Virus record (IMG/VR): IMGVR_UViG_3300045988_070370
Span: 3,495 to 67,494 of that record
Origin: a virus
Reading direction: 5' to 3' (one strand)
Length of the DNA stretch: 64,000 nt
The stretch's first letter is position 1; the number at the start of each line of letters is the position of its first letter. The translations under genes were made by a program, and so were the position numbers. The notes beneath the pieces were generated by a model. The model was not told where the DNA came from. It searched no databases and was given only the letters and a program-made list of their open reading frames with translations. Positions 29,101 through 48,455 of this stretch are shown here, piece by piece.

Positions 29101-32100
29101 TCAGGAGTAACGTCCTTATGTCTCATATAATTACGCTCAAAGATATTCTTCTTGATAACAACTGGCTTGCCTTCTGTTCCGATAGCATCAGCAATTTTCT
29201 TTGGTAAACTAGGCAATTCTACATTTCTGGTAGGATGCAAGAAGTCTTCATCCGTCAATTCATCAACGGACTTAATCTTATCCAGCTTCAAAGTACCATC
29301 CTGATTCAGAGGATTCCCCTGATTATCCTTCAACGAGAACTTTACCTTAGTATAGTCTTTAAATGGCTTTAGCTTACGTTTGCTTGTATCAAGCCACTTG
29401 TCGAACTCATCCTTACTTACTCCAGTAATATTTCCAAGACCTTTCCATCCCTTGCTATAGTTGGCGAGATAAGCCTTTTCTGCATCATCCATGGAGTCAT
29501 AGCCGTACATCACCTTATGCTCATCAAACGAGCCATCAGGATTCACTTGGTCAACGACAAACACATCACCATCCCAATTATCAAGGTCTGCCTTGTCGTT
29601 AATAAACATATCCAGATGGTCGCCATCCTTACCGAACTTACCACGGATATAGCCATAGGTATCGTGCATGGTTACTTTCCACTCTTTGCCATTAGCATCC
29701 TTGCCTGAGCGAGTCGAACCCTTTGGATTCTCTATAGTATAATCGTAGCCACCGAACTTGATGTGTCCCTTCTTGTAGTTGCCACTCTCTTTCTGTGCGT
29801 CAGACGGATTGGTTTCTGTTTCTTCAATAGCAGACTTCAAACGGAGAGAGAACTTGGTGTGATTAGTAATTTGAGCATTGTTCTCGTCAAAGATAACATA
29901 GTTCATCTTGCCTTCCTTGTTACCGCCAGTAGTGCGGTCTGCAATAACCTTAACTCCAACAATACCTTGCTTATTTAAAGCCAAAGATGCTAACTTATCG
30001 GAATGCAGGACTTTGGAAAGTTCGCTGTAAAGCCCATTACCTTTTTGTCTATTCCACAACTGCCAATACTGATACTTTCCATTCTCTGTCTTCTCAAAGT
30101 AATCGTAGTTCCCATCAGAATCATACATAGTATAGCCATCTTCCTCCATAACACGTCTCTTTGCTTCGAGCATTTTAGGAGTGATAGGCTCATCCCATCC
30201 GATGTAGTTATCACCAGTATCATCAGGAATATCAACAGAGTAAAGGTTTCGTGGTTTTCCTATGGAATCCAACTTCTTCTGCAAAGCGTCAATCTTAGTC
30301 TTTACATCTTTGATGTCACTTTCCTTAGTTTTTACATTCTGCTTATATTTTTCAACCTGTTCGCTATAATACATAACATCAGATTCGTACATGTCAACAC
30401 CAAGACCTGTGCCACTTTCCTTTGCCTTTGAAAGTTCTCCCTTAGCCTCATCAAGTCTTGATTGGTACAAATCTACATAGGATTTTGCATCTTTCAACTC
30501 ATCCTCCAATAAATCAAGACCAGACTTGGTATCTGCCAAATTCTGTGCGACAGTATCATAGTCTTCATTAATCTTAAAGTCAGAAGGATTCAAACCTTTC
30601 AAAACATTCAGCTCATCTTGAACTTGCTTGGCTTTCATCTTCGCAAACGGGGTGTCGTCAACGGATGCAAGTTTCTTCTCACCAGCATCTATCATCTGTG
30701 ATATAGCCTCTTTAGCGGAAATGTTAAACTTATCCATATTAAAGGCAACTTGATAGATAATTGATGGAGTTTTATACGTCATAGGTTTATCTTGATACAT
30801 CAGTCTTGAAGGTGCATTCTTCTTTGCATTCTGCTTAGCATAAGCCTTGGCAATACCTTCCACCTCGCTTACATAGGTTCCCCAGCCATAAGCCTGAGCA
30901 CCCTCACCACTACCCATGAAGGAGTGGTCGAACTTGTCAAACGATGCTTGGGAGCCGTGATAAGTCTTGATGGAGAACTTAGGAGCATCAGCTATCTCCT
31001 GATTAATGCTGTTCACAACATCATCAGTAACAATATCGCCCTCCTGAATCTGCTGAGGTTCACGACCAGCCTTGCTTACCAAGTCAGCTTGCTCTGCTCT
31101 GGTCAAGATACGGTTCACCTTCATCGCACCAGTAATCACCCAAGGGTCAGTCTCAGGGTTCGGATTGGTACGATACATATAATAGCCATCAGTAGGCAGA
31201 TGTTTCAGACCAGCCAATGAATGCTGATACTTACCAGATGGATTGATACCCTCTTGGCGAGCTTCCTCCTGATAATCAACATCAGCAGCATATTCCACCT
31301 CAGCGAAGACGAAGTTCTTAGGAAAAAGAGTCTTGTTTCCCTCAGCATCCTTGCGGTTGAACTGGATAGCGTAAGGCACTACACCAAGATGCCAGCCTGG
31401 TCTATAGGCTAGCTTACCGCTACCGCCTTGTGTTCCCTTGCCGCCCTGCTTAACCTGAGGTCTGCCAGTCTTGCTTTCTCCTGCTATAGGAGCCGCATCG
31501 GCATCGAGCCATACACCAACTGGAGTAGCAGCACCATCAGGGTTCGCTACCATTGGTGGATAGAGTTTGCCATCCTTTAGCACGAACACCTTGTAGCCGA
31601 CACCCTTCTTCTTAGGTTCAGGCTTTTGACGGAGAGAGAACGAAACATCTTCGCCAGTCTCAGAGTTTGTCACCTCACCTTTGGCAGTCTTCACGTAGGC
31701 TTGTTCGATAGAGCGGATGATGTTCTTGGTCACATCGCTATACTCAGTACCAAAGAATGCCAACTTAATCTTCTGCAATATCTCATGGATAGCAGCGAGC
31801 AGAGGATGAGACATCTTCATAGCGAGAGTATGAGCCAAGTTGAGGTCACGAATCATTTCACCTACCGCATCAGCAACAACCTCCTCAGCATAGTAATCTC
31901 TAGCACGTCCAGAGAATCCAGCATCGGAATATCTCAGCATGGTCTCATCTACCGCCTTGTCGAAGGCATCAGAGCCATAGGTATCAAGCACAAGCTGAGT
32001 CAACTCATTGTATGCAGCAGGGTTCAGGCTCTTGATTTGGTGAGTCATTTCGTGACCGAAGATGAACTGGGCACCTTCCGTGATGGAAGAGTCTAGAGTG

Positions 32101-35100
32101 ATGAAGATTGTACGATGAACGTTGCCATCAGCATCCTTGGTCTCCTGAATCCAGCCGTTGCCCAACTTGTCGGAGTACTGCCACTGAATGTTGGCACCCA
32201 TCATCTTAGCCAGTCTCTCGAAAGCCTTGCGAGTTTTCTGCCCCACGATGTTGTCAACGACCTTCATATCATCCACCTTATTCTTCTCTACGTCGGCTGC
32301 ACGCTCGGCAGTTGTCTGCTGCTTGCCATTCTCCTTAGCAGAGAAAGGAAGGTCAGATTCATCAAGTTGTTCACCCAAAGGCTTCTCATCCGTTGCATCC
32401 TCGGGAGCCTCAATAGCATTGCTACCCTCTCTTAGTGTGTCAGGGAACTTTGTCTGCTCATTTACAAAATCTCTAAACTCTTTAGCGGTAGCAGCATCAT
32501 AGAACGTTGCACCTTCTGTGATTTCGCTATCTATATTAGAAGAATGATTGAGGTCACGTCCTGCATTGAACTCCTCTTGCAGTTTTCCGAGTTGCTCAAC
32601 GACTTCCGCATTGTCTGGGAAATAAATCACTTGGTTTATATTCTTGCCCTCATCAGGAACAAGAGTACTAACACCAAAGCCATCTTTGCACATCAAGAAC
32701 AAATCAGCGTAGCTATTTAACTTAGATGTAGGGTCTATCTCTAAGCCTTGCTTCTTTGCCCATTTTGCAAGTTCTATAATATTGTTATTAATAGGTTCTC
32801 CTTGTTTATCAATAGCTGGTAAATCTATATTCTCCTCAGCCTTTTTCTTTTCCTCTTCTGCTTTCTTCTCCAGTTCAGCCTTTTTCTTTTCTTCCTCCTC
32901 CTTAGCTTTCTGTTGCTCGTAATATGCAGCATTCTCAGCAGCAGTCCTTTCTTCTTCAATGAGTTTTTCTGCCTGAGCGATACGAATATTCTCAATAAAA
33001 CTTCTTGCTTCCGAAGCCTTGAAACCGCTTGTGAGCACATCAATAAGAGCATTACGAATATCTTGTGTATCGAGAGATTCAAGGTTGGATGGACGATTAT
33101 CCCACAGACTATGTACGAGTGCATCTATAGTCGTTCCTTTGCCATCAGCAGCGAGCAACTGGGTCTTGGCAAAGTCTTCTCTGCTCAATCCAGTCTCTTG
33201 CTTAACACCCTTGCTTGTTTCTGTTCCCTCATAGTTGAGAGAGTGAGCACCGAGGTTGCTAGCCACATACTCCTCAGCAGTAAGCGGAATGGTATCTGTC
33301 ACATCAATGCCTGTACCATCATACAGACGATGCAGCAGAGTTCCAACCGTCTCCTTATAGATTTGAGCAACAGCCTCTGCATCATCCTTCACCGCACTCT
33401 TCAAGCGAGCAAACTTTCTTCTTGCCTTCTCAATAAGATTCTTTCTGCCCTCAGCAGTATCTTCCACCTTGGCAAGTTGTCGCTCATTATAGGCATCACG
33501 GATAGCGATAGCAGAGTCATAAGCCGCCTGAGCATCAGCAATAGCCTTCTCCTTAGCATCCTTGGAAGCCTTCTGTTCTAAGAAAGTCTTACCCTTCACG
33601 GTCATGTTGTTAGCCTTGTCGAGTGCCTTCTTTGCATCAGACACATATCCAGATACGATACTATCTGCATCCTCACCAAACTGATTATCATATAGCTCAG
33701 CAGTCTGTGCGGCAGTCAGCTTCGAGAAGTCAGGATTGCCATCCTCCAGCATAGGTACGATGGTTCCATCTTCAAGGGTAATGGTAGGAGCAGCAGGAGT
33801 CTGTTCTGTTGCAGGAGTCTCAGTAGTCTCATCAGAAGGAGCAGTAGTCTCTGTATTCTCTGCTACCTCAGGAGTTGTTTCATCCTCTATTGTAGGAGAT
33901 TCCACCTCTATCTCACCTCTATTCTCTCCACTATTATCCTCTATCATTGAGGAGGCAGCAAATGCTTGCTTATACTCATCGAGCGACATAGAAGAGATTG
34001 TAGCCACATCTTCTTTGTTCACAGCATGAGGAACAATAGTACCATCACTCTTCAACTCAACTACCTTAGCCTTAGCACCAGTATCACGAATAAGGAACAA
34101 CTTGGAGTCAGGGTATTTAGTGTTACCATCCTCATCAAGTACATCAACGAGCACCACGTTTCCATTATCATTAAGTATTTGATTGAAATCAAATGAAGGT
34201 TGAGTCTCTTCTGTCTCCTGAGTCTGTTGGTCTGCACGTTCCTTCTCCAACTGCTCACGCTGAGCCTTAGCAGCTTCCAGTCTCTTCTGGTCTTCCAAGT
34301 CTTTCATCTGCTGCAAGTCTGCAAGCGAATAAGGATTCTCCACCACGTTACCATCTATAGAGACAGCAGCAGTACCATCACCATAATCAGCCAACACCTC
34401 ATAGGTATGTTCAATACCATCAGTATCAGTCACATTGAACTGAGAGCCAACCTCTACAGTTCCGTCAATGATGCCAGCAATCTCTTTGATAGCATTCTCT
34501 TTTGCATCAGCTACCGCCTGAGCCTTCACATCATCAGCAGGAAGTTCTTCACCCAGTTCAGCAAACATCAACGCATCAGCATGTTCTACACTATTCGTTG
34601 TCGGGTCGTAGTAGAGAATCATATCATCACTATTGCTTACATCAATAGAACCATCTTCATGAGTAGCAATATTACCGCTGATAATATACACACCATAATC
34701 TTCCAAACCGCCTGATGCTTTGATGGTAGCGTTACGAACGGAGCCACGACTTCGGTCTGTGTACATATCCACTTTCTGTGCCGCCTGATGAGCAGCTATA
34801 TCAACCTTGTCTTGTGCATCATCAATCACACCTTGGTATCGGGCAGAAGACAACTGATAATCATAGATAGCTTGGTCAAGTTTATCATCCTGTCCTGTCA
34901 GGGATTCCAGTTCCTCATCACTCATGGCAGATAGCTGCTGCTCAGAGATGCCAAATGCTGCTGCAAGAGTCTTCATCTGGTCTTCCTGCTGAATCTGAAT
35001 ATCATGCTTGTCTGCATCATCTGCATTATGACCTTCCGTATAAGCATCATCAAGGTCGTTTGATAATGTTGGAGCAGTATCACCTTCTTCAACCTTATCT

Positions 35101-40066: not shown

Positions 40067-40771
40067 TTAATGTCTTTTCGATTTCTCGATGTTATATTGG
40101 TCGCAAATGTCGCAGTATGCGCCATAAGCCAAGCTATCAACCATTTCATTGTACTTGTCACCATTGTGACCTTTCACCCAGTGGAAACGGACTCCTGCCA
40201 AATGAGCAGAACATTTCTTGTATAACTCGTAGAGGTCAGGATTCTTCTTTGGCGGAGTACTCTTCCCCAACACAAGTATGCAGTACTGACTATCCGTATA
40301 AATATCAAGATAAGCACCATCAGGACAAGACTTAGCTGCACTAATGATAGCAAGCAACTCCATACGGTTGTTGGTTGTCTGCAATCTGCCGTGATTCTTC
40401 ATCTTGACAATATCGCCATCCTTCAACACGATGTAAGCCGAACCTCCAGCCTTATACTTAGAGTTATTATCACAACTTCCATCCGTATAGGCAACATAGT
40501 TCATGCCATTATCTGGAAAAGGCTCTACTGGGTCAAAATCATCCGACTTTTCTGCCATTTTTTCTCTGATAGTCTTAGAAAATTTCCCTTTAGCGTTGAA
40601 CACTCCATAATTGGCATCCGTGAGAATCATCCAATTTACAGGTTCTTCTCCATTTGCCTTCTTCCATTTTCTATCATCAAGATAATCATAAAGACTTTTG
40701 ATGAATTTATCAGTTCCATAGTTCTTAGATACACAATATCTTTTGAACTTTTCATAAGTTGGTTTATCCAT
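40067..40771 (-). CDS. RNase HI with about 90-aa N-terminal extension
   Basis: DEDD residues appear in context: YTDGSC, NNRMELLAI, IYTDSQY, NEMVDSLA. WVKGHNGDKYNE is also present. Confidence 0.85.
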   Translation of the reverse strand: MDKPTYEKFKRYCVSKNYGTDKFIKSLYDYLDDRKWKKANGEEPVNWMILTDANYGVFNAKGKFSKTIREKMAEKSDDFDPVEPFPDNGMNYVAYTDGSCDNNSKYKAGGSAYIVLKDGDIVKMKNHGRLQTTNNRMELLAIISAAKSCPDGAYLDIYTDSQYCILVLGKSTPPKKNPDLYELYKKCSAHLAGVRFHWVKGHNGDKYNEMVDSLAYGAYCDICDQYNIEKSKRH

Positions 40772-40837: not shown

Positions 40838-41641
40838 TTAACAGAAAAATCCGTCAGGGATTCCTCCAATATTCATGCCTCTCTGGATAACCTTTTCACT
40901 CTGCTTGCCATAGATAAGATGTCTGAATCCATCCGACACCGCTCTATCAGCGATAGAATAGGAACAGGCAAGAACTACAAAACCAAGAGTACCAATAATG
41001 AAATCAGCTTTTGTTTTTCTCGTTCTCAGCAAAGTTCTCTTTGTTTCTTCGTTATTCCTTATGTCAAAGGAATGTTTCTCTGAAAGAGTAGAATTAATTC
41101 TTCCACTGGCAATGAGCCTTTTCTTGACTCTTGAAACAGAACTAATACTTGTATTGAGAGCCTTATGAAATTGCTTTAATGTGATTGCTTTACCTTTGGC
41201 ACCGACTTTTTCACCCTCAGGTGCTTTCATGCAACAGTCCTTATGCTCGGCAGCACAAATCTGAAACTCAAAAAGCTTCTCATTAATAAGATTGAATAAT
41301 TCCTTCAATGTATATTCTTTCACCTCAAACTTACAGACCATAGCACCACGATACTCATGCCCCTTACGAGTCCACTTTATCGTGTTGTCACGGAATGAAT
41401 GAACAATAACCTTGTTTCCGTCAACGGTAAACAAGTCATCATCCTTCATATCTTGAATAAGTCTTTCTGCTTTTGGCTTTCCAATATGTAACTCCTTTCT
41501 TAATCTATATTCCGTAACATTCCACATTACAGAATTACTATGCTGCATCTTTATCCAAATAGCAACTGCAAGAAGTTCTTTCATGCTCTTGCTTGAAGAG
41601 TATGCTTTCAAAAGTTCTATAGTTATATTTATATACTGCAT
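40838..41641 (-). CDS. Hypothetical HTH-containing protein with C-terminal hydrophobic helix
   Basis: ORF 40838-41671, with an alternative start MQYINITIE at 41641. It has the HTH-like segment ITLKQFHKALNTSISSVSRVKKRLIASG and the helix FIIGTLGFVVLACSYSIA. Confidence 0.45.
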   Translation of the reverse strand: MQYINITIELLKAYSSSKSMKELLAVAIWIKMQHSNSVMWNVTEYRLRKELHIGKPKAERLIQDMKDDDLFTVDGNKVIVHSFRDNTIKWTRKGHEYRGAMVCKFEVKEYTLKELFNLINEKLFEFQICAAEHKDCCMKAPEGEKVGAKGKAITLKQFHKALNTSISSVSRVKKRLIASGRINSTLSEKHSFDIRNNEETKRTLLRTRKTKADFIIGTLGFVVLACSYSIADRAVSDGFRHLIYGKQSEKVIQRGMNIGGIPDGFFC

Positions 41642-41761
41642 AGCATAAAAAAAGAGGAATCCCAAGGTCATGTTGCGCTAACCAAGGGATTCCATATCTA
41701 AAAAGGCATAAAGCCTGAAAGGAGGACAAATCTGTATGTGTCAATCGCAACTTTGACGATG

Positions 41762-41992: not shown

Positions 41993-42186
41993 ACGCAAAG
42001 CTAATGAACACATAAGTGTCTGATTATTAGTACTTTACAATAGAAATACAAATTGATGGAATTTACCGCTCAGCAATCAAAGAAAAATAGCTTACTAATA
42101 CCTATTACATAGCTAATAACACCTAAAATACTTATTATCAACCACTTACAAATAGCAATCTGATAAATATCTCCGTTTTAGATATT

Positions 42187-42202
42187 AGTAGATATATAGT
42201 AG
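42187..42202 (+). repeat. Direct repeat A copy 2 (TAGTAGATATATAGTA)
   Basis: See 41847-41862. Confidence 0.6.
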
Positions 42203-42216
42203 GTATTAGCATATCT

Positions 42217-42235
42217 TGTTACTATTTTGTTACTC
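42217..42235 (+). repeat. Direct repeat B copy 2 (TGTTACTATTTTGTTACTC)
   Basis: A perfect 19-bp repeat, 50 nt upstream of the integrase promoter box. Confidence 0.7.
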
Positions 42236-42284
42236 GTTCTTAACATTTATCTCCCATTTTCTTGCAAGTAACAAAAAATATAAT

Positions 42285-42292
42285 TATCTTTG
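42285..42292 (+). promoter_or_regulatory. -7 promoter box TAtcTTTG for the integrase
   Basis: tatctttg lies 27 nt upstream of the ATG at 42319. Confidence 0.5.
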
Positions 42293-42318
42293 CAGCGAAA
42301 ACCATAATAAGGAGGCTT

Positions 42319-43479
42319 ATGAAAGAAAAGAACAATTCAAAAGAACCAGTCACTATCAGATACAAGGAGTTAGCCAATGGCAACCTCAGTATCTACCTTG
42401 ACATCTACAAGGATGGCAAGAGGGCATACGAATTTCTCAAACTTTATCTCCTGCCCGAAACAGGTAAGGATAGAATGGAGCACAAGAGGAAGAACAAGGA
42501 GACCAGGGAAGTAGCCAATCTCATCAAATCACAACGCATCCTTGACATCAAGAACGGAATGGCAGGGATAGAGAGCAAAAACAAAGGAAAAATGAAACTC
42601 TCTGACTACATAGACAAATTCATAAAATACAAGAAGGGAGTAAACCCTACCTATAATGACTCCTTCCTTAATCGAACGAAATCGCTTGTTGTAGAATACA
42701 AAGGCGATAATGTACTTATGAAGGATATAAACAAAGAATGGTGCTTAGGCTACATTAGATTCCTGAATACAACAACCTCTCACAGAGGTAAACCGCTCGG
42801 TAAGAACTCAATAAAGACATACTACAGATACTTTGGTTCTGTTATCATCAAGGCTGCAAAGGATGAAATCATACAGAAGAATCCTTTGGATCAGATTGAA
42901 ACAGAAGAAAAGCCAAAGGCAAATGATGATGCAGGAAGGGTGTACCTGACCATAGACGAGATAAGAAAGATGGCAGAGACTGAATGCGAGAAAGAGGTCA
43001 TTAAACGTGCATTCATGTTTTCCTGTTTTTGCGGATTGCGAATATCAGACATCAGGAAGCTGAAATGGACAGATATAGAGCAGACAACAGATGGCGATGG
43101 AAATACTCACTACCGCCTTTCAACGACCATGCAGAAGACTCAGAAGACCATCACCTACCAGTTATCCAATGAAGCTGTCAAATGGCTACCTGAAAGAAGT
43201 GAAGGCGAACTTGTGTTCGACCATCTTACCAAGAAGTCCAAGTTGAGTATGGTAGTGAAAGACTGGGCAAAGGCAGCAGGAATAGATAAGTATGTTACAT
43301 TCCATACCGCCAGACATTCTTTTGCCACAATGATGCTGACACTTGGAGCAGACATCTACACTACCAGCAAGTTACTTGGGCACTCCAAGATACAGACAAC
43401 CGAGATATATGCTAAGATAATTGATAAGAAGAAGGATGAAGCCATGGGACTCATTGATAAGTTCTTTGATAAAGGTTAA
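42319..43479 (+). CDS. int: Tyrosine recombinase / phage integrase (Bacteroidota type)
   Basis: ORF 42262-43479, with likely start MKEKNNSKEPV. The catalytic context is CGLRISDIRKLKW, HTARHSFATMML and LLGHSKIQTTEIYAKI (R..HxxR..H..Y). Confidence 0.9.
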   Translation: MKEKNNSKEPVTIRYKELANGNLSIYLDIYKDGKRAYEFLKLYLLPETGKDRMEHKRKNKETREVANLIKSQRILDIKNGMAGIESKNKGKMKLSDYIDKFIKYKKGVNPTYNDSFLNRTKSLVVEYKGDNVLMKDINKEWCLGYIRFLNTTTSHRGKPLGKNSIKTYYRYFGSVIIKAAKDEIIQKNPLDQIETEEKPKANDDAGRVYLTIDEIRKMAETECEKEVIKRAFMFSCFCGLRISDIRKLKWTDIEQTTDGDGNTHYRLSTTMQKTQKTITYQLSNEAVKWLPERSEGELVFDHLTKKSKLSMVVKDWAKAAGIDKYVTFHTARHSFATMMLTLGADIYTTSKLLGHSKIQTTEIYAKIIDKKKDEAMGLIDKFFDKG

Positions 43480-43523
43480 TAGTTAAACTATGTAATTTGC
43501 TTCTGATTCTCAGGAGAAAACCG

Positions 43524-43531
43524 TAATTTTG
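43524..43531 (+). promoter_or_regulatory. -7 promoter box TAatTTTG
   Basis: taattttg lies 29 nt upstream of the ATG at 43560. Confidence 0.45.
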
Positions 43532-43559
43532 CCTCATAAACTTTATAAACTCATTGCTT

Positions 43560-43964
43560 ATGAATGCTTTAGATGTAGATTTATATGTGCTTCTTGATTT
43601 TCAGTACCAAAAAAGCGAAAAAGAAATCAGGGCATACCGTTACTTGCACGAAAGTCAGCGTGTATTTAGCGACCTTCTTTACAAAGACAGAGTAAAATGT
43701 CTAACAAAGCTTGGCTACCTTGCTCATGGTATCGGAATGAGCGATGATGGTGTCAGAGACCATTGGTGGGTTACCGAAGAAGGAAAAGAAAAAATCAAGG
43801 AGTGTATGGAACGCTCTTCAATATACAAAATAAGAAGACTCTCCAAAAAGTATGGAGTTGTAAGAGACCAGCTACATATCTTTTGGGAAAGCCTTCCTTA
43901 TGCGTTCATTATATACTTCATCGGTCTAATTATATTTAGCTTCATCAGAAAATGGATATTCTAA
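43560..43964 (+). CDS. Tail-anchored small protein, paralog A (soluble N-domain plus C-terminal TM)
   Basis: The ATG at 43560 gives MNALDVDLYVLLDF.... The C-terminal helix is LPYAFIIYFIGLIIFSFI. The architecture and the LYVLLD / YL..G / VT..G motifs are shared with 44007-44432. Confidence 0.55.
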   Translation: MNALDVDLYVLLDFQYQKSEKEIRAYRYLHESQRVFSDLLYKDRVKCLTKLGYLAHGIGMSDDGVRDHWWVTEEGKEKIKECMERSSIYKIRRLSKKYGVVRDQLHIFWESLPYAFIIYFIGLIIFSFIRKWIF

Positions 43965-44006
43965 ATGATAAGATAGCATTAGGCGCAATAATTGGGATTT
44001 CTTTAG

Positions 44007-44432
44007 CTATCGTTGTTTCAGTACTATATATGTAACTACAGAACCGACAATAGCCCCAATGAAAGCGTCTGCAACCATCCACATAATCTTGTAGATTACA
44101 CCATGTTGTTCCTTAAATGAAGACTCCTTCTTTAGAGCCTTCACTTCCTCCTCATGCTCCTTTTTTAACATACTGCCATTCCAAAGGATTGGTATCTGGC
44201 TCCTGCCCTGCTTGGTAACACTATACACCACCCTGGATTCTTGGTTACTATAGGCATACCCTCGGTTGAGGTATTCGCTCTTCACCAATAGTTCTGCAAC
44301 ACCCTCTTTCCAAGCACCATCAGGAGATACGTTATCATAAATGATACTCCATATCTCCTGCTCATACTCAGACTTGTCTCGGATGCTATCCAGCAGCACG
44401 TAAAGCTTCTGTTCATTTGTTATCTCAGCCAT
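44007..44432 (-). CDS. Tail-anchored small protein, paralog B
   Basis: 141 aa, containing KLYVLLDSIRDKSEYE and the C-terminal helix MWMVADAFIGAIVGSVVTYIVL. Its start overlaps the upstream stop. Confidence 0.55.
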   Translation of the reverse strand: MAEITNEQKLYVLLDSIRDKSEYEQEIWSIIYDNVSPDGAWKEGVAELLVKSEYLNRGYAYSNQESRVVYSVTKQGRSQIPILWNGSMLKKEHEEEVKALKKESSFKEQHGVIYKIMWMVADAFIGAIVGSVVTYIVLKQR

Positions 44433-45622
44433 TATTTTATCCCCAAACTTTGTATTTGATTTTTTAAGATTTTTGATTTTGTTATATAATCAATGTTATT
44501 TAAACGGCAATGATTTATGGTTACATCATTGCCAGACATTGCGCCAAAAACCAAACTACAAATATACCCATTATAATCACCTCGTTTCTGAGAAATAGTT
44601 GCCATCATAAGAAAACAACTTCCTATTGTATCGTTAACTCGACCTTTTCCATCAAGTACATCTATTTTGGATAAGCCATATCTATCTTGTAATACAGACA
44701 AACTTTTCTCGAAACAAGAATTTGCTAACGTGTACGCATTTTTGTCGTAATATGCAAAGCCTTGCATATAATATGCATCTCCCAAAAGTTCATTCAACAA
44801 ATTAGAGGAAAGAGATAAGTATTGTCTCTTGTGCTCAATACAATCTATCAGTTTTTCCGAATATAATATCGTGTTATCTCTATCCTTTAAACCGTCATAG
44901 GCTATCATTCGATAATAATATGAATAGAAATAAGAATCGTCTGACAAATATATATAAGGGTCATCAATCCATTCGTTACATACATCAATACACTCTCTAT
45001 CTTTATGTGTACTAAGATAACATCTTGCTAAGTATCTGTAGCCTTTATCCGTTAAAAGGTTTTTATATTTAAAATCTTCCATTTGATGAATAATCATACT
45101 ATAACTTCCAGAAGAAAAATTAGATTCTAAACCTTCATATACTTTATCTATATACTCAGGGCTATAATTTGCCGTTGATTTATTTATAATAAGCTTGTTC
45201 CCATCTATACCAACCTTACCAATTTTCTGAATTGCAGACAAACCTAACAATAAAGGTGCTCTTTGACTATCCAATATAACAGCCTCGACATCATCAATTT
45301 TAATACCACCTATCTCTAATCTTTTTATTTTAACAACAATATGGTCTATACTTTCACCAGACGCAATAGTAGAAGACCCCTCGCCAATAACGTCTGTTTC
45401 ACGCAACAATCCATTACGGAACATATAAGACGCAACCTTAGAAGACAGACTAACATCGGATGCTCCTGTGTCAAATATCATACTAACTTTATAGCCATTA
45501 ACTGTACACGGAACCGTAAAAACACCACCATCTTTTGTCATTTCTATAACTGTTTGTGAAAAAACACATAAGCTAATTAACATAAAAGACAAAACAAACA
45601 TTACTCTTTTCATACCTACCAC
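44432..45622 (-). CDS. Secreted retropepsin-like aspartyl protease domain fused to a TPR-like helical domain
   Basis: The signal peptide is MKRVMFVLSFMLISLCVFSQ. The clan-AA motif is VSMIFDTGASDVSL, with LLLGLSAIQKIG as the flap/closing segment. The C-terminal 230 aa are Y/L/D-rich helical repeats. The region is low in GC. Confidence 0.65.
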   Translation of the reverse strand: MVGMKRVMFVLSFMLISLCVFSQTVIEMTKDGGVFTVPCTVNGYKVSMIFDTGASDVSLSSKVASYMFRNGLLRETDVIGEGSSTIASGESIDHIVVKIKRLEIGGIKIDDVEAVILDSQRAPLLLGLSAIQKIGKVGIDGNKLIINKSTANYSPEYIDKVYEGLESNFSSGSYSMIIHQMEDFKYKNLLTDKGYRYLARCYLSTHKDRECIDVCNEWIDDPYIYLSDDSYFYSYYYRMIAYDGLKDRDNTILYSEKLIDCIEHKRQYLSLSSNLLNELLGDAYYMQGFAYYDKNAYTLANSCFEKSLSVLQDRYGLSKIDVLDGKGRVNDTIGSCFLMMATISQKRGDYNGYICSLVFGAMSGNDVTINHCRLNNIDYITKSKILKNQIQSLGIK

Positions 45623-45629
45623 ACATTAA

Positions 45630-46013
45630 TTATCCTACACTTCTCTTACCCATAACACCGCCAAGATTAGACACCAACATATCGTAGCAATCCTTAATAG
45701 CTTCGTACTTCGCCTTCCAGACAGAATCATGTTCTACTACATCAGATTCTCTTCCTTTAGTATCTTGCATTTTTGCAAGAGTCATTTGTTCACTAATAAG
45801 CATTTCGCCTTTTCCACGCAATAACCATTCGGCAGAAACGTCAGGAAAGACAGAAAGGACTCCCTCTATCACCTTAGATGACAAAGCTTGGTCTCCTTTT
45901 AATTGTCTATTAACCGTACTCGGAATCATTTCAAGCATATTTGCAAGACCATTTGGAGTTTTACAAAAATGCTTTAAAACAACGTTAATACGTTCAATTA
46001 CAGATACTTCCAT
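45630..46013 (-). CDS. HTH repressor-like protein (CI-like; no S24 peptidase domain)
   Basis: 127 aa. The N-terminal HTH is LANMLEMIPSTVNRQLKG, with the conserved AEWLLRGKGEM seen in Bacteroidota phage/ICE regulators. It is divergent from a Cro-like gene. Confidence 0.6.
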   Translation of the reverse strand: MEVSVIERINVVLKHFCKTPNGLANMLEMIPSTVNRQLKGDQALSSKVIEGVLSVFPDVSAEWLLRGKGEMLISEQMTLAKMQDTKGRESDVVEHDSVWKAKYEAIKDCYDMLVSNLGGVMGKRSVG

Positions 46014-46062
46014 ACATTTTACATTTTTATACCATAATTAAATATTGTTAATTTGCGCAACT

Positions 46063-46092
46063 TTTTCGACAAAAGCTTGCATTTTTTGCAAG
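46063..46092. promoter_or_regulatory. Operator-like palindromes in the divergent switch region
   Basis: TTGCGCAA (46063-46070) and CTTGCA-TTTTT-TGCAAG (46076-92) abut the TAccTTTG box. Confidence 0.4.
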
Positions 46093-46100
46093 ATATTATA

Positions 46101-46108
46101 TACCTTTG
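46101..46108 (+). promoter_or_regulatory. -7 promoter box TAccTTTG (early rightward)
   Basis: tacctttg lies 60 nt upstream of the ATG at 46168. Confidence 0.45.
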
Positions 46109-46167
46109 CACTCGTAATCAATAAGTGCTTAATTATTAAAAGCAAAAATACAACAAAAAATTAAGTT

Positions 46168-46365
46168 ATGCAAGCAAAAAAGATAAAAATTATCAAAGTT
46201 CCGCTTGAAGGACGAAAAAAACTTGCAGAGCGATATGGTTGTTGCAGAGAGACAATCTTCAACGCTCTTGCATTTAGGAGTCAGAGCAAGCAGTCCGAGG
46301 ACATCAGGCAAGATGCTCTGAATGACTTCGGAGGAGTGGAGACTGACAAGGTTGTGTTCTATTAA
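46168..46365 (+). CDS. Cro-like small regulator (putative)
   Basis: 65 aa, first gene divergent from the repressor. The possible HTH is LAERYGCCRETIFNAL. Confidence 0.4.
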   Translation: MQAKKIKIIKVPLEGRKKLAERYGCCRETIFNALAFRSQSKQSEDIRQDALNDFGGVETDKVVFY

Positions 46366-46379
46366 AAAAGGAGGTGAGC

Positions 46380-46619
46380 ATGATTAAAAGATTATTCAGA
46401 ACATGGCTGAGGTATAAACTCGTAAGAATGATTGGCGAACGTGAAACCAACTTTGAAGAAGTTTTTGAATGGATTTACAATTCGCCAATCACGGATTGGA
46501 AGATAATGCTCTACTTGGCAAACAAATTCGATGGGTGTATAGATTCACAATCGCATCCGAACAAATTTAAAGTTGATTTGGATAGAGCAAAGGAAGTTTT
46601 AAATTTTATCAAGAACTAA
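46380..46619 (+). CDS. Hypothetical protein
   Basis: The track ORF is 46374-46619. The ATG at 46380 gives MIKRLFRTW. Confidence 0.45.
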   Translation: MIKRLFRTWLRYKLVRMIGERETNFEEVFEWIYNSPITDWKIMLYLANKFDGCIDSQSHPNKFKVDLDRAKEVLNFIKN

Positions 46620-46799
46620 CAATATTGTTATTCTGGTATTTTCACTTCCACCTCGTGTAACTTGCGTACTATTACAAGTTGATACGCTTGATACTTTCCA
46701 ACCATCAAGATTGGATTGACTGACAATAGAGTTAAGATAACTCTCCAAATCATTTAGCTCATCTATTGAGCGTGTGATTGCAACGATTTTCTGTTTCAT
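46599..46799 (-). CDS. Small hypothetical protein
   Basis: The internal start MKQKIVAITRS (46799) lies about 40 nt downstream of the minus-strand TAccTTTG box at 46839-46846. Confidence 0.4.
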   Translation of the reverse strand: MKQKIVAITRSIDELNDLESYLNSIVSQSNLDGWKVSSVSTCNSTQVTRGGSENTRITILLVLDKI

Positions 46800-46838
46800 A
46801 CGAAATTGAATTAAGTTAAAATAAAAATTTGTCAACCG

Positions 46839-46846
46839 CAAAGGTA
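46839..46846 (-). promoter_or_regulatory. -7 promoter box (TAccTTTG on minus strand)
   Basis: The plus strand reads caaaggta. Confidence 0.4.
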
Positions 46847-46955
46847 CAAAATAAAAACTACAATCGGGCAACGGTAGATATAATAATGTATAAAATGAAA
46901 ATTTGTCACTTTCTGTTTCATACACTACCGCCCGATTTTAAAACTGGAGGAAAAT

Positions 46956-47831
46956 ATGAATGAAATTGTTTACAGAGGTGAAAGCAACCAACCTCTAACA
47001 AATAGCAAACTGGTTGCTGAGGTCTTCGGCAAAGAGCACCGCAATGTTGTAAGAGACATTAAAAACCTCATCGAAGGGGGTGTGCTCAAAAATGAGCAGA
47101 CCCCGATGTTTGAAGAAACTACCTACATCAACGAGCAGAACAAACAGAGTTATCCTATGTTCATCATGAACCAAGATGGTTTCACCTTGCTGGCGATGGG
47201 ATTCAATGGCAAGAAAGCGATGGAGTTCAAACTTAAATACATTGAAGCCTTCAACGCTATGAAGAGACAGATTGAGCAATCCAAGCCATCAGTCCCTCAG
47301 AACTATCTCGAAGCTCTCAAATCTCTGGTCAAGGCAGAAGAGGAGAAACAGCAGTTAGCCTTGGAGAACAAGCAGCAGCAAGCAACCATCCTCACTATCA
47401 GCAAGGAGAACATGGAACTTGGGAACAAGATTACCGAAATGCTGCCTAAGGTAAGCTACTACGACCAAATCCTGCAAAGCAATGCCACCATGACCATCAC
47501 CCAGATAGCGCAGGACTACGGAATGAGTGCGGTGAGAATGAACAAAGAGTTGGAATCTATGAGAATCCAGCATAAGGTTCGAGGTCAGTGGATATTGTAC
47601 GGACAGTTCCTTACTGGCGGCTACGTTCATAGCAGAGCAGTTGACATCATCCGTTCAGACGGAAGGCATGACGTGAAGTATAACACCGAGTGGACAACCA
47701 AGGGAAGAATCTTCCTTTATGATGCACTCAAAGCGAAGGGCATTCTCCCCTTAATAGAGCAGGAATGTACTCCCAGTAGTAAAGGCACTGGTAGAACAGA
47801 GTCGTCAAAGACAACTGGTGCCTGTCAGTAA
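46956..47831 (+). CDS. Antirepressor, Rha N-terminal domain plus KilAC/ANT C-terminal domain
   Basis: The N-terminal part is LTNSKLVAEVFGKEHRNVVRDIKNL (Rha-type). The C-terminal part is MTITQIAQDYGMSAVRMNKELESMRIQHKVRGQWILYGQF (KilAC-type). Confidence 0.8.
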   Translation: MNEIVYRGESNQPLTNSKLVAEVFGKEHRNVVRDIKNLIEGGVLKNEQTPMFEETTYINEQNKQSYPMFIMNQDGFTLLAMGFNGKKAMEFKLKYIEAFNAMKRQIEQSKPSVPQNYLEALKSLVKAEEEKQQLALENKQQQATILTISKENMELGNKITEMLPKVSYYDQILQSNATMTITQIAQDYGMSAVRMNKELESMRIQHKVRGQWILYGQFLTGGYVHSRAVDIIRSDGRHDVKYNTEWTTKGRIFLYDALKAKGILPLIEQECTPSSKGTGRTESSKTTGACQ

Positions 47832-47850
47832 ACCATCAAATTCAACTGAT

Positions 47851-48132
47851 ATGATAGACCCACAGATTAAGGAGCAGTTAGACCGCATCGAGCAGTATTC
47901 GATGATAGCTGCAAAGAATGTGCTCAACATTCAGGAAGCTGCAATCATCCTTGGCATGACGGTAGAAGGTGTGAGGTATAATGTTAGAAACAACAAACTT
48001 CCCTGCTACAAACCGAACGTCAACCGACTCTACTTCAAGAAGAGTGAGCTGGAAGACTGGATGATGCAGAACCGCTCGAAGAGTATGGCAGAGATAGAAT
48101 CAGAGGCAGCAGCCTATTGTACAACCCATTAA
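47851..48132 (+). CDS. Excisionase-like HTH (MerR/HTH_17-type) protein
   Basis: ORF 47818-48132, with likely start MIDPQIKEQ. The motif is NIQEAAIILGMTVEGVRYNVRNNKLPCYKPNVNRLYFKKSELEDWM. Confidence 0.6.
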   Translation: MIDPQIKEQLDRIEQYSMIAAKNVLNIQEAAIILGMTVEGVRYNVRNNKLPCYKPNVNRLYFKKSELEDWMMQNRSKSMAEIESEAAAYCTTH

Positions 48133-48143
48133 AAATATAGAAT

Positions 48144-48236
48144 ATGTTCTCAACAGTTATGTTATTATTGTCAATTATCACTTTTTGCGTGATGACAAAC
48201 GAGATTTACCGCTCATTCAAGGAATGGGGCAAATAA
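48144..48236 (+). CDS. Possible 30-aa hydrophobic peptide
   Basis: Own reading gives MFSTVMLLLSIITFCVMTNEIYRSFKEWGK. It is below the ORF-track size cut-off and has no other support. Confidence 0.25.
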   Translation: MFSTVMLLLSIITFCVMTNEIYRSFKEWGK

Positions 48237-48377: not shown

Positions 48378-48455
48378 ACGCAAGTAGTTCAGTTGGTAGA
48401 ACAGAAGGTTCCCCATCCTTCGATGTCGTGGGTTCGAGTCCCACCTTGCGTCCCA
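48378..48455 (+). tRNA. tRNA-Gly-like gene with apparent 8-nt anticodon loop (UUCCCCAU) and encoded CCA
   Basis: Manual cloverleaf parse. Acceptor ACGCAAG/CTTGCGT. D arm GTTC-AGTTGGTA-GAAC. Anticodon stem GAAGG/CCTTC (48404-08/48417-21) with loop TTCCCCAT. Variable region GATGTC. T arm GTGGG-TTCGAGT-CCCAC. Discriminator C, then CCA. The D arm resembles bacterial tRNA-Gly(CCC). Confidence 0.75.

What the first reader, a model, noticed from the sequence alone, without database searches (positions are those of the whole stretch)
43560..46013. The repressor operon carries a secreted retropepsin-like/TPR protein and a tail-anchored protein, plus a convergent paralog, in a rexAB-like position
Seen: the CI-like HTH gene (46013-45630) is followed on the same strand, with 8-nt and overlapping junctions, by two genes. 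The first is a 396-aa protein with a signal peptide, a clan-AA aspartyl-protease motif (MIFDTGASDVSL) and a roughly 230-aa TPR-like helical domain. The second is a 141-aa protein with a soluble N-domain and a single C-terminal TM helix. A 134-aa paralog of that small protein shares the LYVLLD, YL..G and VT..G motifs and the C-terminal TM. It sits convergently at 43560-43964 with its own TAatTTTG box, directly after the integrase. The protease gene is visibly lower in GC than its surroundings. Established: genes co-transcribed with the prophage repressor (lambda cI-rexA-rexB, sieB and others) are classic lysogen-expressed exclusion or defence cargo. Inference: this is a candidate lysogen-expressed envelope-located exclusion or defence system. 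It would pair a periplasmic or outer-surface protease/TPR sensor with membrane-anchored partners. I do not recognise this composition as a named system.
Basis: partly seen in the sequence, partly recalled or inferred. Interest (0 to 1): 0.75.

Follow-up and report, generated by a model that had tools for sequence, protein, structure and literature searches.

The report
Phage repressor-operon cargo slot: secreted protease
A temperate phage of gut Segatella/Prevotella has a swappable cargo slot just downstream of its repressor gene. In this strain the slot holds a borrowed secreted retropepsin-type protease, and the two small membrane proteins beside it are fixed parts of the phage backbone rather than partners of the protease, so this is a familiar kind of prophage 'moron' locus with unusual, untested cargo.

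Summary
A CI-like gene (46013-45630) is followed by a Sec-exported retropepsin + TPR protein (45613-44432), a 141-aa tail-anchored protein (44432-44007) and a convergent 134-aa paralog (43560-43964) next to the integrase.

The three-gene "system" reading does not hold. About 30 related phage loci share the backbone ant<-cro<-|->repressor->[slot]->small protein<-integrase. The slot holds at least 10 alternative cassette families, nearly all signal-peptide, lipoprotein or membrane proteins. The protease is one single-ORF cassette:
- It has low GC (31.6% against 41.8% for the window).
- Homology breaks exactly at the ORF ends.
- It combines with at least 3 repressor types and at least 5 small-protein alleles, with or without the paralog.
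- Its nearest non-phage relative (64% identity) is a lone low-GC gene in the Prevotella pectinovora chromosome.

The small proteins are backbone genes found only in this phage lineage. They are predicted to be PadR-like winged-helix domains on a C-terminal membrane anchor with almost no periplasmic part. All three genes are under purifying selection. No known defence family matches.

Best reading: a lysogeny-module moron hotspot carrying envelope cargo, probably for exclusion or lysogenic conversion. Its function is untested.

Side observation: a phage tRNA with hypervariable 7- or 8-nt anticodon loops.

The parts
46168..46365 (+). cro-like 65-aa gene, divergent from the repressor operon
   Evidence: ORF. 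phrog_16858 E 3.6e-10. Conserved at 81-100% identity in most related loci, and at 45% in one lineage.
46076..46150 (.). Switch region. It holds the perfect palindrome CTTGCATTTTTTGCAAG (46076-46092, candidate operator), a TAnnTTTG box on the - strand (46143-46150, candidate repressor-operon promoter) and one on the + strand (46101-46108, candidate cro promoter).
   Evidence: The function of these sites is inferred, not shown.
45630..46013 (-). CI-like repressor candidate, 127 aa, first gene of the operon
   Evidence: PHROG repressor/regulator families E 4e-6 to 6e-4. Synteny with cro and Rha/ANT. Relatives carry at least 3 repressor types at 38-53% identity, plus the 99% type.
44432..45613 (-). 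Secreted retropepsin-like aspartic protease + TPR-like protein, 393 aa (alternative GTG start at 45622). It is a single-ORF cargo cassette.
   Evidence: Pfam and NCBIfam scores above cut-off. AF2/Foldseek results. Homology to slot-variant phages stops at the repressor stop and resumes 1-6 nt before the small-gene ATG. GC 31.6%. dN/dS 0.087.
45557..45613 (-). Predicted Sec signal peptide, residues 1-19. Predicted cleavage is before the near-invariant Gln20.
   Evidence: Hydrophobic segment 1-19. Q20 is near-invariant. There is no lipobox. The cleavage site is an inference.
45173..45556 (-). Retropepsin domain, residues 20-147. The catalytic D48-T-G is encoded at 45464-45472.
44444..45160 (-). 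TPR-like all-alpha repeat domain, residues 152-390
   Evidence: Helix pairs with pLDDT mostly above 90. Foldseek matches to consensus TPR, BamD, BtubC and KLC TPRs at E about 3e-4 to 1e-3. Pfam TPR_2 scores 19.7 bits, below its cut-off.
44007..44432 (-). 141-aa tail-anchored protein, a backbone gene. It has a PadR-like winged helix (residues 1-87, 44172-44432), a charged helix, and a hydrophobic C-terminal helix with GxxxG (about residues 111-137, 44022-44102).
   Evidence: AF2 pLDDT 86. Foldseek top hits are all PadR/MarR proteins. Hydropathy. It is the last gene of the operon in all 20 hand-annotated related loci. The family has only 12 clusters at 50% identity among 1.84e9 proteins.
43560..43964 (+). 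134-aa paralog of the tail-anchored protein. It lies downstream of the integrase and is co-directional with it. It is optional in the family.
   Evidence: It is present in the window lineage and in L012-L017, and absent in L006, L018-L033 and L127-129. dN/dS 0.02-0.27.
43524..43531 (+). TAATTTTG, a Bacteroidota-type -7 promoter box upstream of the paralog
   Evidence: Promoter function is not shown.
42262..43479 (+). Tyrosine integrase (probably 386 aa, starting at 42319)
   Evidence: Pfam Phage_integrase, Arm-DNA-bind_5 and Phage_int_SAM_5. In integrated copies it abuts pyrF/prfA/purM of Segatella/Prevotella.

Best explanation
The region is the lysogeny module of a roughly 65-kb temperate phage of gut Segatella/Prevotella. 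The window shows the circular (attP) form of the genome.

The repressor operon has a fixed first gene (a CI-like repressor) and a fixed last gene (a small tail-anchored protein). Between them is a recombinational cargo slot. Across the phage family this slot holds one to five interchangeable cassettes, almost all encoding signal-peptide, lipoprotein or membrane proteins.

In this lineage the slot holds a single horizontally acquired ORF for a retropepsin-like aspartic protease fused to a TPR-like domain. The proposed mechanism is inferred:
- The protein is exported by Sec and cleaved before Gln20.
- It dimerises through the retropepsin half-barrel to form the two-Asp active site.
- It uses the TPR solenoid to hold a peptide or protein substrate in the periplasm.
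- There it remodels or degrades an envelope or incoming protein. The most likely role is superinfection exclusion. The alternative is lysogenic conversion of the cell surface.

The 141-aa protein and its 134-aa paralog are not partners of the protease. They are backbone genes specific to this phage lineage. Each is predicted to put a cytoplasmic PadR-like winged-helix domain on the inner face of the membrane through a C-terminal helix. Their role is unknown; they may be a membrane-tethered regulator or exclusion factor.
For: Backbone and slot:
- The order ant<-cro<-|->rep->slot->small[<-paralog]<-int is conserved in L006, L012-L045 and L127-129.
- There are at least 10 cargo families, clustered. 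None hits Pfam or PADLOC.
- Almost all have a signal-peptide-like N-terminus, a lipobox or TM segments.

Cassette nature of the protease:
- DNA homology to relatives ends at the repressor stop and resumes 1-6 nt before the small-gene ATG.
- The P. pectinovora copy aligns at 70.7% over the ORF only.
- GC is 31.6% against 41.8% in the phage, and 27.7% against 50-54% in P. pectinovora.

Combinatorial independence:
- Copies at 91% identity or more occur with repressors at 99% or 42-47% identity.
- They occur with at least 5 small-protein alleles.
- The paralog accompanies the protease only in the window lineage.
- L028 and L029 have the window's repressor (99%) but a 289-aa lipoprotein plus a 158-aa 4-TM protein in the slot.

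The gene is functional:
- dN/dS is 0.087 at dS 0.46.
- The catalytic motif is invariant.
- The AF2 model is confident, with a retropepsin fold plus a TPR-like fold.
- The identical gene was found in three independent metagenome assemblies. All 10 loci shown that carry the window's exact small protein have the same gene order, protease included.

Temperate phage:
- The window carries portal, terminase, tail and exonuclease genes.
- Integrated copies lie next to Segatella/Prevotella pyrF/prfA.

Small protein:
- AF2 model and PadR-like Foldseek hits.
- A single C-terminal hydrophobic helix.
- The family is confined to this phage lineage.
Against: - No expression data exist. Co-transcription with the repressor is inferred only from the 16-nt gap, the 1-nt overlap and the absence of terminator-like sites.
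- No phenotype data exist, and no homology to any characterised exclusion or defence protein was found.
- Within the window's own lineage the trio is tightly and stably linked, and the protease is translationally abutted to the small gene. A lineage-specific cooperation therefore cannot be excluded.
- Signal peptide, cleavage site and membrane topology come from hydropathy and conservation, not from dedicated predictors or experiment.
- The C-terminal helix of one small-protein allele is amphipathic rather than clearly transmembrane.
Confidence: 0.7

Rival explanations
1. The protease/TPR protein, the 141-aa protein and the 134-aa paralog form one envelope defence or exclusion system. A periplasmic protease/TPR sensor signals to, or acts with, the membrane-anchored partners.
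For: - The genes are adjacent and the protease stop overlaps the small-gene start (TAATG).
- The trio has the same gene order in all 10 places shown from many human gut studies.
- A small tail-anchored protein is always present next to whatever cargo is in the slot. It could therefore be a generic adaptor.
Against: - The protease is present in only 2 of 17, and 2 of 61, related IMG/VR contigs.
- The small protein occurs with at least 10 other cargo sets.
- The protease occurs with different small-protein alleles, including a B-type only 26% identical, and without the paralog.
- The protease occurs alone in the P. pectinovora chromosome. Distant homologues have other conserved neighbours, namely a 170-179-aa secreted protein or a Sel1 protein.
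- The small protein exposes only about 3 residues to the periplasm.
- There is no PADLOC hit.
Confidence: 0.1
2. The protease is a host-fitness (lysogenic conversion) or interbacterial-immunity factor unrelated to phage exclusion. For example, it might process host surface or periplasmic proteins, or destroy periplasm-delivered toxins. It would simply be hitch-hiking in the phage moron slot.
For: - The nearest relative is a stand-alone chromosomal gene.
- The family is widespread in Bacteroidota chromosomes as forms of about 380 aa and of 610-690 aa.
- Distant members sit in operons of secreted proteins.
- The characterised bacterial retropepsin APRc processes surface autotransporters in vitro (PMC4140852).
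Against: - The slot position between repressor and integrase is where exclusion genes sit in other temperate phages, for example ltp in the lysogeny module of TP-J34 (PMC3952083).
- Other family members lie beside HigBA, HipBA and AbiH in accessory islands, which suggests a conflict-related role.
- None of this discriminates strongly between the two readings.
Confidence: 0.3
3. The protease is a phage life-cycle enzyme, for virion maturation or lysis, rather than lysogen cargo.
For: Retropepsins are classic viral maturation proteases (own knowledge). The gene is under purifying selection.
Against: - It lies in the lysogeny module on the repressor strand, far from the portal and terminase genes.
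- It has a secretion signal.
- It is absent from most members of the same phage family, which have otherwise syntenic genomes.
- It has no homologue in 50,697 GenBank phage records and no PHROG family.
Confidence: 0.03

Closest known systems
Lambda cI-rexA-rexB and P22 sieB-type cargo co-transcribed with the prophage repressor (own knowledge)
   Same: The genes lie immediately downstream of, and on the same strand as, the repressor. They are compatible with one transcript. They are accessory to the phage life cycle.
   Different: There is no sequence or family relationship. The cargo here is a single exported protease in a multi-allelic cassette slot. Expression and exclusion are untested.
Sie/Ltp-type superinfection-exclusion genes in the lysogeny modules of Streptococcus thermophilus TP-J34 and lactococcal P335 phages (PMC3952083; Sie2009 from own knowledge)
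   Same: The position is inside the lysogeny module between repressor and integrase. The products are envelope-located, and gene content varies between related phages. Ltp is itself a membrane-tethered protein built from HTH-like domains (Bebeacua et al. 2013, cited in PMC3952083), loosely like the tail-anchored winged-helix proteins here.
   Different: Ltp is an externally exposed lipoprotein, whereas the small proteins here lack a signal peptide, so their domain should be cytoplasmic. No homology was found. The host is Gram-negative Bacteroidota. A protease as cargo has not been described for Sie.
Variable integrase-repressor defence loci of Cluster N mycobacteriophages (Dedrick et al. 2017; own knowledge, not checked here)
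   Same: A hypervariable set of lysogen cargo genes lies between integrase and repressor in otherwise similar temperate phages, with mix-and-match cassettes.
   Different: The phage and host phyla are different. The cargo here is almost entirely envelope-directed. No defence phenotype is known.
Rickettsia APRc (RC1339), a retropepsin-like aspartic protease (PMC4140852; PDB 5c9f)
   Same: It is the best structural match to the N-terminal domain (E 6e-8, TM 0.76 on the target). It has a DTG active site and is a bacterial envelope-located enzyme. It is dimeric, and its activity depends on the catalytic Asp.
   Different: APRc is membrane-embedded and located in the outer membrane, has no TPR domain, and is chromosomal. 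Sequence similarity is marginal (E 0.026). The protein here is predicted to be soluble and periplasmic, and it is phage-borne.
PadR-family winged-helix regulators (e.g. PDB 3l7w, 5zi8, 3hhh, 5h20), and membrane-bound one-component regulators such as ToxR/CadC (own knowledge)
   Same: The small proteins have the H1-H2-H3-beta-hairpin-H4 topology followed by a C-terminal helix. Like ToxR/CadC, the DNA-binding-type domain would be tethered to the inner face of the membrane.
   Different: There is no Pfam PadR hit. The N-domain is acidic (pI 4.7). There is no periplasmic sensor domain. DNA binding is not shown. The family is confined to one phage lineage.

Membership tests
Retropepsin-like clan AA aspartic proteases (Pfam PF13975/PF13650; NCBIfam TIGR02281) | Profile score above the curated cut-off | tested here: met
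   PF13975 57.5 bits (cut-off 28.2), PF13650 52.8 bits (24.3), TIGR02281 60.7 bits (57.95).
Retropepsin-like clan AA aspartic proteases (Pfam PF13975/PF13650; NCBIfam TIGR02281) | Catalytic Asp-Thr/Ser-Gly triad plus the downstream hydrophobic-hydrophobic-Gly motif | tested here: met
   F47-D48-T49-G50-A51 and P120-L-L-L-G124 are invariant in 41 homologues.
Retropepsin-like clan AA aspartic proteases (Pfam PF13975/PF13650; NCBIfam TIGR02281) | Retropepsin half-barrel fold | tested here: met
   AF2 pLDDT 87.7. Foldseek matches APRc 5c9f at E 6e-8, and HIV, SIV and FIV proteases and Ddi1 at E 3e-4 to 1e-3.
Retropepsin-like clan AA aspartic proteases (Pfam PF13975/PF13650; NCBIfam TIGR02281) | Homodimer formation and Asp-dependent proteolysis | not testable with these tools
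   Needs biochemistry, for example a D48A mutant and pepstatin or HIV-protease inhibitor sensitivity.
TPR repeat proteins | Tandem helix-turn-helix repeats recognised by TPR profiles or fold | tested here: inconclusive
   Sequence: only TPR_2 at 19.7 bits, below the cut-off of 27. Fold: paired helices over residues 152-390 match consensus TPR, BamD and KLC TPRs at E about 3e-4 to 1e-3 but with low TM scores. The domain is TPR-like, not a proven canonical TPR.
Repressor-operon exclusion cargo (lambda rexAB / sieB type) | Co-transcription with the repressor in lysogens | not testable with these tools
   Compatible features only: 16-nt gap, same strand, no terminator-like site between the genes.
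Repressor-operon exclusion cargo (lambda rexAB / sieB type) | Homology to RexA/RexB/SieB or any catalogued defence protein | tested here: not met
   No PADLOC hit for the protease or either small protein. No relevant Pfam or PHROG hit.
Repressor-operon exclusion cargo (lambda rexAB / sieB type) | Exclusion or abortive-infection phenotype | not testable with these tools
   Requires phage challenge of a Segatella/Prevotella host expressing the genes.
Multi-gene system (obligate partnership of protease, 141-aa and 134-aa proteins) | Co-occurrence of the component families across independent elements | tested here: not met
   The small protein occurs without the protease in most relatives: the protease is present in only 2 of 17 and 2 of 61 contigs. 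The protease occurs without the paralog and with other small-protein alleles. The protease occurs alone in a bacterial chromosome.
Lysogeny-module moron / cargo hotspot | Fixed flanks with variable, dispensable gene content among otherwise syntenic temperate phages; compositionally foreign cargo | tested here: met
   Breakpoints lie at the repressor stop and the small-gene start. Cargo GC ranges from 29.6% to 42.8% against 41% for the phage.
PadR-family winged-helix proteins (small proteins) | PadR profile match | tested here: not met
   No Pfam hit at E <= 0.1. The profile search against PDB gives only 3l7w at E 0.11.
PadR-family winged-helix proteins (small proteins) | wHTH fold with a C-terminal helix | tested here: met
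   AF2 pLDDT 86. The top 50 PDB hits are nearly all PadR/MarR-type winged-helix proteins, with probability about 1.0, E 7e-3 to 5e-2 and target-normalised TM up to 0.59. BFVD gives a phage PadR-family regulator at rank 2.
PadR-family winged-helix proteins (small proteins) | Sequence-specific DNA binding | not testable with these tools
   The N-domain is acidic overall (pI 4.7), but helix 3 plus the wing is basic (pI 9.2).

The most novel reading that the evidence does not exclude
The retropepsin-TPR protein could be the first example of a protease-based periplasmic superinfection-exclusion or anti-effector factor. It would cut an incoming phage ejection protein, a receptor domain or a delivered toxin. 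It would belong to a wider, unrecognised Bacteroidota family of conflict-related secreted retropepsins that sit in islands with toxin-antitoxin and Abi genes. Separately, the universally retained tail-anchored PadR-like protein could be a new membrane-tethered component of lysogeny control or exclusion in Bacteroidota phages.
Probability: 0.15. Interest if true: 0.7.

Novelty: new member of a known kind. Interest (0 to 1): 0.4.

Why it matters
Temperate phages of Segatella/Prevotella, which are dominant human gut bacteria, are almost unstudied. This locus defines where one abundant family of them keeps its lysogen cargo, and shows that the cargo is overwhelmingly envelope-directed. That gives a compact, well-delimited panel of at least 10 cassette families, including a secreted retropepsin-TPR protease with no homologue in catalogued phages. 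The panel can be tested for superinfection exclusion or surface conversion in a clinically relevant genus. It also corrects a tempting over-interpretation, that three adjacent genes form one system, and it flags a lineage-specific membrane-tethered winged-helix protein as a conserved part of the immunity operon. As it stands the locus is an example of a known principle with uncharacterised content, not a demonstrated new mechanism.

Tried and rejected
1. Known defence systems. PADLOC found nothing for the three proteins or for 10 alternative cargo proteins.

2. Known phages. Megablast of 42000-48200 and tblastn of the protease against 50,697 GenBank phage records gave no match.

3. Hypervariability of the 141-aa protein. 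Its 657 clusters at 90% identity suggested a DGR target or diversifying selection. I rejected this. dN/dS is 0.10-0.18, and dS is as elevated as dN relative to the neighbouring paralog, which points to mosaic recombination rather than positive selection. No reverse transcriptase gene was noticed in the parts of the window I annotated, but I did not search for one or for template/variable repeats.

4. A wider family for the small protein. Exhaustive phmmer against 1.84e9 representatives gave 12 clusters. A profile search added 11 hits (668 against 657). There is no link beyond this phage lineage.

5. Prophages in species-representative genomes. Two genome-contig scans, one with a single sequence and one with an alignment, found nothing. 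One alignment was too diverse to use.

6. A 'housekeeping' origin for the protease. The P. pectinovora copy is flanked by rlmN/pdxA/lptE/secG and 5'-nucleotidase/NUDIX. However, the gene itself has 27.7% GC in a 50-54% GC region. It lies next to an ORF that resembles an IS/transposase fragment by eye; I did not test that resemblance. I therefore read it as acquired there too.

7. Homology between the phage 169-aa secreted cargo and the 170-aa secreted partner of distant chromosomal protease homologues. BLASTP found no match.

8. A terminator between the convergent small genes. None is convincing (z = -1.24).

9. Literature searches for Bacteroidota retropepsin-TPR proteins and for Segatella temperate phages returned nothing specific.

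Full report
OBSERVATION

On the minus strand lie a 127-aa gene (46013-45630), a 396-aa ORF (45622-44432) and a 141-aa ORF (44432-44007). On the plus strand an integrase (42262-43479) is followed by a 134-aa ORF (ATG at 43560, ending at 43964).

The protease ORF most likely starts at the ATG at 45613 (393 aa), as in most database copies. This leaves 16 nt after the repressor stop. Its TAA stop overlaps the ATG of the small gene by one base.

The protease assignment is solid:
- Pfam gag-asp_proteas and Asp_protease_2 and NCBIfam TIGR02281 all score above their curated cut-offs.
- F47-D-T-G-A51 and P120-LLLG124 are invariant in an alignment of 41 homologues.
- An AlphaFold2 model (pLDDT 87.7) has a beta-rich domain whose best PDB match is the Rickettsia retropepsin APRc (5c9f, E 6e-8, target-normalised TM 0.76), followed by HIV, SIV and FIV proteases and Ddi1. 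Its all-alpha C-terminal half (residues 152-390) matches consensus TPR, BamD and kinesin-light-chain TPR solenoids.

Export is predicted from sequence. The N-terminus is a hydrophobic signal segment ending at a near-invariant Gln20. There is no lipobox. I found no type IX C-terminal domain: the C-terminus is helical.

The two small proteins are real paralogs (34% identity over 73 aa, E 8e-6; shared invariant L10, Y11, L13, L14 and G76). Each has one C-terminal hydrophobic helix.

The protease gene has 31.6% GC against 41.8% for the window. The TAATTTTG box upstream of the paralog is present (43524-43531), and TAnnTTTG is enriched in the window (87 sites against 53.5 expected).

The CI-like label for the first gene rests on three things: weak PHROG repressor hits; divergent synteny with a cro-like gene and a Rha/ANT antirepressor; and a perfect palindrome in the intergenic region.

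WHAT THE WINDOW IS

The window carries portal, large terminase, tail, tail-fibre and recombination exonuclease genes. It also carries a 5,684-aa ORF whose relatives have polyvalent-protein domains. Contigs with the same genes are 64-68 kb long.

In some assemblies the integrase abuts bacterial pyrF, prfA and purM (L036, L043). Their products are identical, or at least 90% identical, to proteins named Segatella or Prevotella. In other assemblies, and in the window, the integrase is followed by a 248-277-aa gene and an RNase H gene of the phage. That is the circular attP form.

This is therefore a temperate, apparently active phage of gut Segatella/Prevotella. The same lysogeny-module gene order was recovered from many independent human gut studies. 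The protease gene is nucleotide-identical in three of them.

COMPARATIVE ANATOMY

I collected about 30 related loci from metagenome assemblies and IMG/VR, plus 78 further IMG/VR stretches. They share one backbone: Rha/ANT <- cro-like <- | -> repressor -> [variable stretch of 0.85-2.1 kb] -> small tail-anchored protein [<- paralog, only in some] <- integrase.

The variable stretch holds at least 10 protein families in different combinations:
- a 169-aa secreted protein;
- a 91-aa lipoprotein, which is the commonest (25 of 61 IMG/VR stretches);
- 147-aa and 193-aa secreted proteins;
- a 289-aa lipoprotein;
- a 158-aa protein with four TM segments;
- 171-, 177-, 142-, 94- and 65-aa membrane proteins;
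- a 262-441-aa family;
- the protease.

None of them hits Pfam or PADLOC. Nearly all have a signal-peptide-like N-terminus, a lipobox or TM segments.

DNA similarity between the window and relatives with different cargo stops within about 25 nt of the repressor stop. It resumes 1-6 nt before the ATG of the small gene. The protease is therefore a clean one-ORF cassette.

INDEPENDENCE OF THE THREE GENES

- Protease copies at 91% identity or more are found only in this phage family and only in this slot.
- They sit behind repressors that are 99% or only 42-47% identical to the window's.
- They sit in front of at least five small-protein alleles, including a B-type that shares only the first 13 residues and about 26% identity.
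- The paralog accompanies the protease only in the window lineage.
- Conversely, L028 and L029 have the window's repressor (99%) but carry a lipoprotein and a 4-TM protein instead of the protease.
- Among IMG/VR contigs, the protease is present in 2 of 17 with the small protein and in 2 of 61 with the repressor.
- The next-closest protease (64% protein identity; 70.7% DNA identity over the ORF only) is a solitary gene in the Prevotella pectinovora chromosome, between rlmN/pdxA/lptE/secG and a 5'-nucleotidase/NUDIX pair. There it has 27.7% GC in a 50-54% GC region. It lies beside an ORF that looks like a transposase remnant by eye, which I did not test. It looks acquired there as well.
- More distant homologues (about 30% identity) are common in Bacteroidota as forms of about 380 aa and of 610-690 aa. 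They lie in accessory regions with other secreted proteins, Sel1 proteins, HigBA, HipBA, AbiH and Bro-N genes.
- The small tail-anchored family is never nearby in those chromosomal contexts.
- The small protein leaves only about three residues beyond its hydrophobic helix. A periplasmic TPR or protease domain would have nothing to contact (inference).

Together these points argue against an obligate three-part system.

ARE THE GENES FUNCTIONAL?

Yes. dN/dS is 0.087 between the two phage protease alleles (dS 0.46) and 0.14 against the chromosomal copy. It is 0.10-0.18 for the 141-aa gene and 0.02-0.27 for the paralog.

The hundreds of 87-94%-identical variants of the 141-aa protein therefore reflect a large recombining phage population, not diversifying selection.

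THE SMALL PROTEINS

AlphaFold2 (pLDDT 86) predicts helix-helix-helix-beta hairpin-helix followed by a helix of about 50 residues. The last roughly 27 residues of that helix are hydrophobic and contain GxxxG.

Nearly all of the top 50 PDB matches are PadR/MarR-type winged-helix proteins (probability about 1.0, E 7e-3 to 5e-2). A phage PadR-family regulator is second in the viral structure library. The only PDB sequence-profile hit is the PadR-like 3l7w (E 0.11).

There is no Pfam hit. The family has only 12 clusters at 50% identity among 1.84 billion representatives. A profile search does not extend it.

The protein is mosaic. It has a near-invariant 13-residue N-terminus, two N-domain types and at least five C-terminal helices. 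The N-domain is acidic overall, but helix 3 plus the wing is basic, so DNA binding is possible but unproven.

I read these as backbone genes that tether a winged-helix domain to the cytoplasmic face of the membrane. Their role is unknown; it could be regulation of lysogeny or exclusion at the membrane.

MECHANISM (INFERRED)

The repressor promoter region lies upstream of 46013; the TAnnTTTG box at 46143-46150 is one candidate. It would drive repressor, cargo and small gene as one lysogen-expressed transcript. This fits the 16-nt gap, the 1-nt overlap and the absence of terminator-like sites.

The protease would be exported, cleaved before Gln20 and dimerised. It would then act on a protein held by its TPR-like domain in the periplasm.

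Two things favour superinfection exclusion: the envelope bias of all cassettes in this slot, and the position between repressor and integrase. [quoted passage not shown] I therefore favour exclusion, at roughly 0.4-0.5, over surface or fitness conversion or anti-toxin immunity, at roughly 0.3. APRc shows that a bacterial retropepsin can process envelope proteins (PMC4140852). None of this was tested here.

COMPARISON AND NOVELTY

- The locus works like the repressor-linked or lysogeny-module cargo of lambda (rexAB), P22 (sieB), TP-J34 (ltp) and Cluster N mycobacteriophages.
- It is not a member of any of those protein families.
- The protease is a bona fide retropepsin-like clan AA enzyme.
- The TPR call is at fold level only.
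- The small proteins are PadR-like by fold but not by profile.
- A secreted retropepsin-TPR protein as phage cargo has no counterpart in 50,697 GenBank phage records or in PHROGs.

I classify the finding as a new member of a known kind, a lysogeny-module moron hotspot, with interesting but uncharacterised content. Interest is 0.4.

SIDE OBSERVATION

The phage tRNA at 48378-48455 (Rfam tRNA, 52 bits) has an 8-nt anticodon loop, TTCCCCAT. The sequence is identical in eight independent assemblies.

In 78 IMG/VR contigs the same scaffold carries TTTATGAG (33), TTCCCCAT (16), TTCATCC (14, a normal 7-nt loop with CAT), TTCTTCCC (9), TTCATGAG (3) and three rarer loops.

A conserved tRNA body with a hypervariable, mostly 8-nt anticodon loop is unusual. 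I found no report of such a phage tRNA in the held literature. It deserves its own follow-up.

Noticed in passing
window 48378-48455 (+); syntenic tRNAs in L006, L012, L017-L033, L036-L045, L046-L123: This phage tRNA (Rfam 52 bits) has an 8-nt anticodon loop, TTCCCCAT ('CCCC', sufD-like). The sequence is identical in 8 independent assemblies. Across 78 IMG/VR contigs the same tRNA scaffold carries hypervariable loops: TTTATGAG 33, TTCCCCAT 16, TTCATCC (7 nt, CAT) 14, TTCTTCCC 9, TTCATGAG 3, and TTCCCTAT, TTTCTCCC and TTCATCT once each. These could be quadruplet-decoding or +1-frameshifting tRNAs, or anticodon-loop variants that evade or decoy tRNA-targeting nucleases. I found no literature precedent.
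   Followed up: partly
window 20199-37253 (-): A single 5,684-aa ORF. Relatives in L013 and L044 (4,886-5,197 aa) carry ART-PolyVal, PBECR1/5, LPD13/23/38, InPase and DNA-methylase domains, so this is a giant 'polyvalent protein' of the kind found in phages and conjugative elements.
   Followed up: no
L001-L005 (Prevotella pectinovora JXQH01000013.1 and metagenome copies), gene at 8001-9185: The closest non-phage homologue of the protease (64% identity) is a lone gene with 27.7% GC in a 50-54% GC chromosomal region between rlmN/pdxA/lptE/secG and 5'-nucleotidase/NUDIX. The ORF next to it (7376-7888) looks like an IS/transposase fragment by eye. The gene therefore looks horizontally acquired in the bacterium too.
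   Followed up: partly
L007, L010, L124, L125, L126: Distant (about 30% identity) retropepsin-TPR homologues sit in accessory islands beside HigB/HTH_3, HipA/HTH_31, AbiH, Bro-N and DUF3990/DUF3791. They have a conserved upstream 170-179-aa secreted partner (61% identical between L007 and L010) or a downstream Sel1 protein. L007 has two retropepsin-TPR paralogs (384 and 677 aa) within an array of unknown secreted or membrane proteins.
   Followed up: partly
window 44393-44432 (first 13 codons of the 141-aa gene) and equivalents in all related loci: The N-terminus MAEITNEQKLYVL(L) is almost invariant even between small-protein types that are otherwise about 26% identical, and DNA homology resumes exactly there. 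It may act as the right-hand recombination boundary of the cargo slot. The C-terminal helices are swapped independently, with at least 5 types.
   Followed up: partly
window 45763-45780 and 46076-46092: The operator-like palindrome CTTGCA-N5-TGCAAG in the cro/repressor intergenic region has a near-copy with a 1-nt shorter spacer (TCTTGCATTTTTGCAAGA) inside the repressor coding sequence. It may be a second operator.
   Followed up: no
L012, L014, L032, L033 (about 0.4-0.5 kb beyond the integrase); L036, L043: Two integration specificities exist in the family. Phages whose integrase is about 55% identical to the window's have a tRNA-Cys(GCA) next to the integrase. In the integrated copies L012 and L014, rarA and a GH10 gene lie beyond it. 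The window-type integrase is found next to pyrF/prfA/purM of Segatella/Prevotella.
   Followed up: partly
window 40067-40771 (-) and 40838-41671 (-): An RNase H gene and a variable 248-278-aa gene flank the integrase/attP side. The 277-aa gene is present in the window, L019, L027 and L044. A possibly related 270-278-aa gene is present in L012 and L014; its homology was not tested. The gene is absent in L013, L015 and L016, which suggests a second small cargo site near attP.
   Followed up: no
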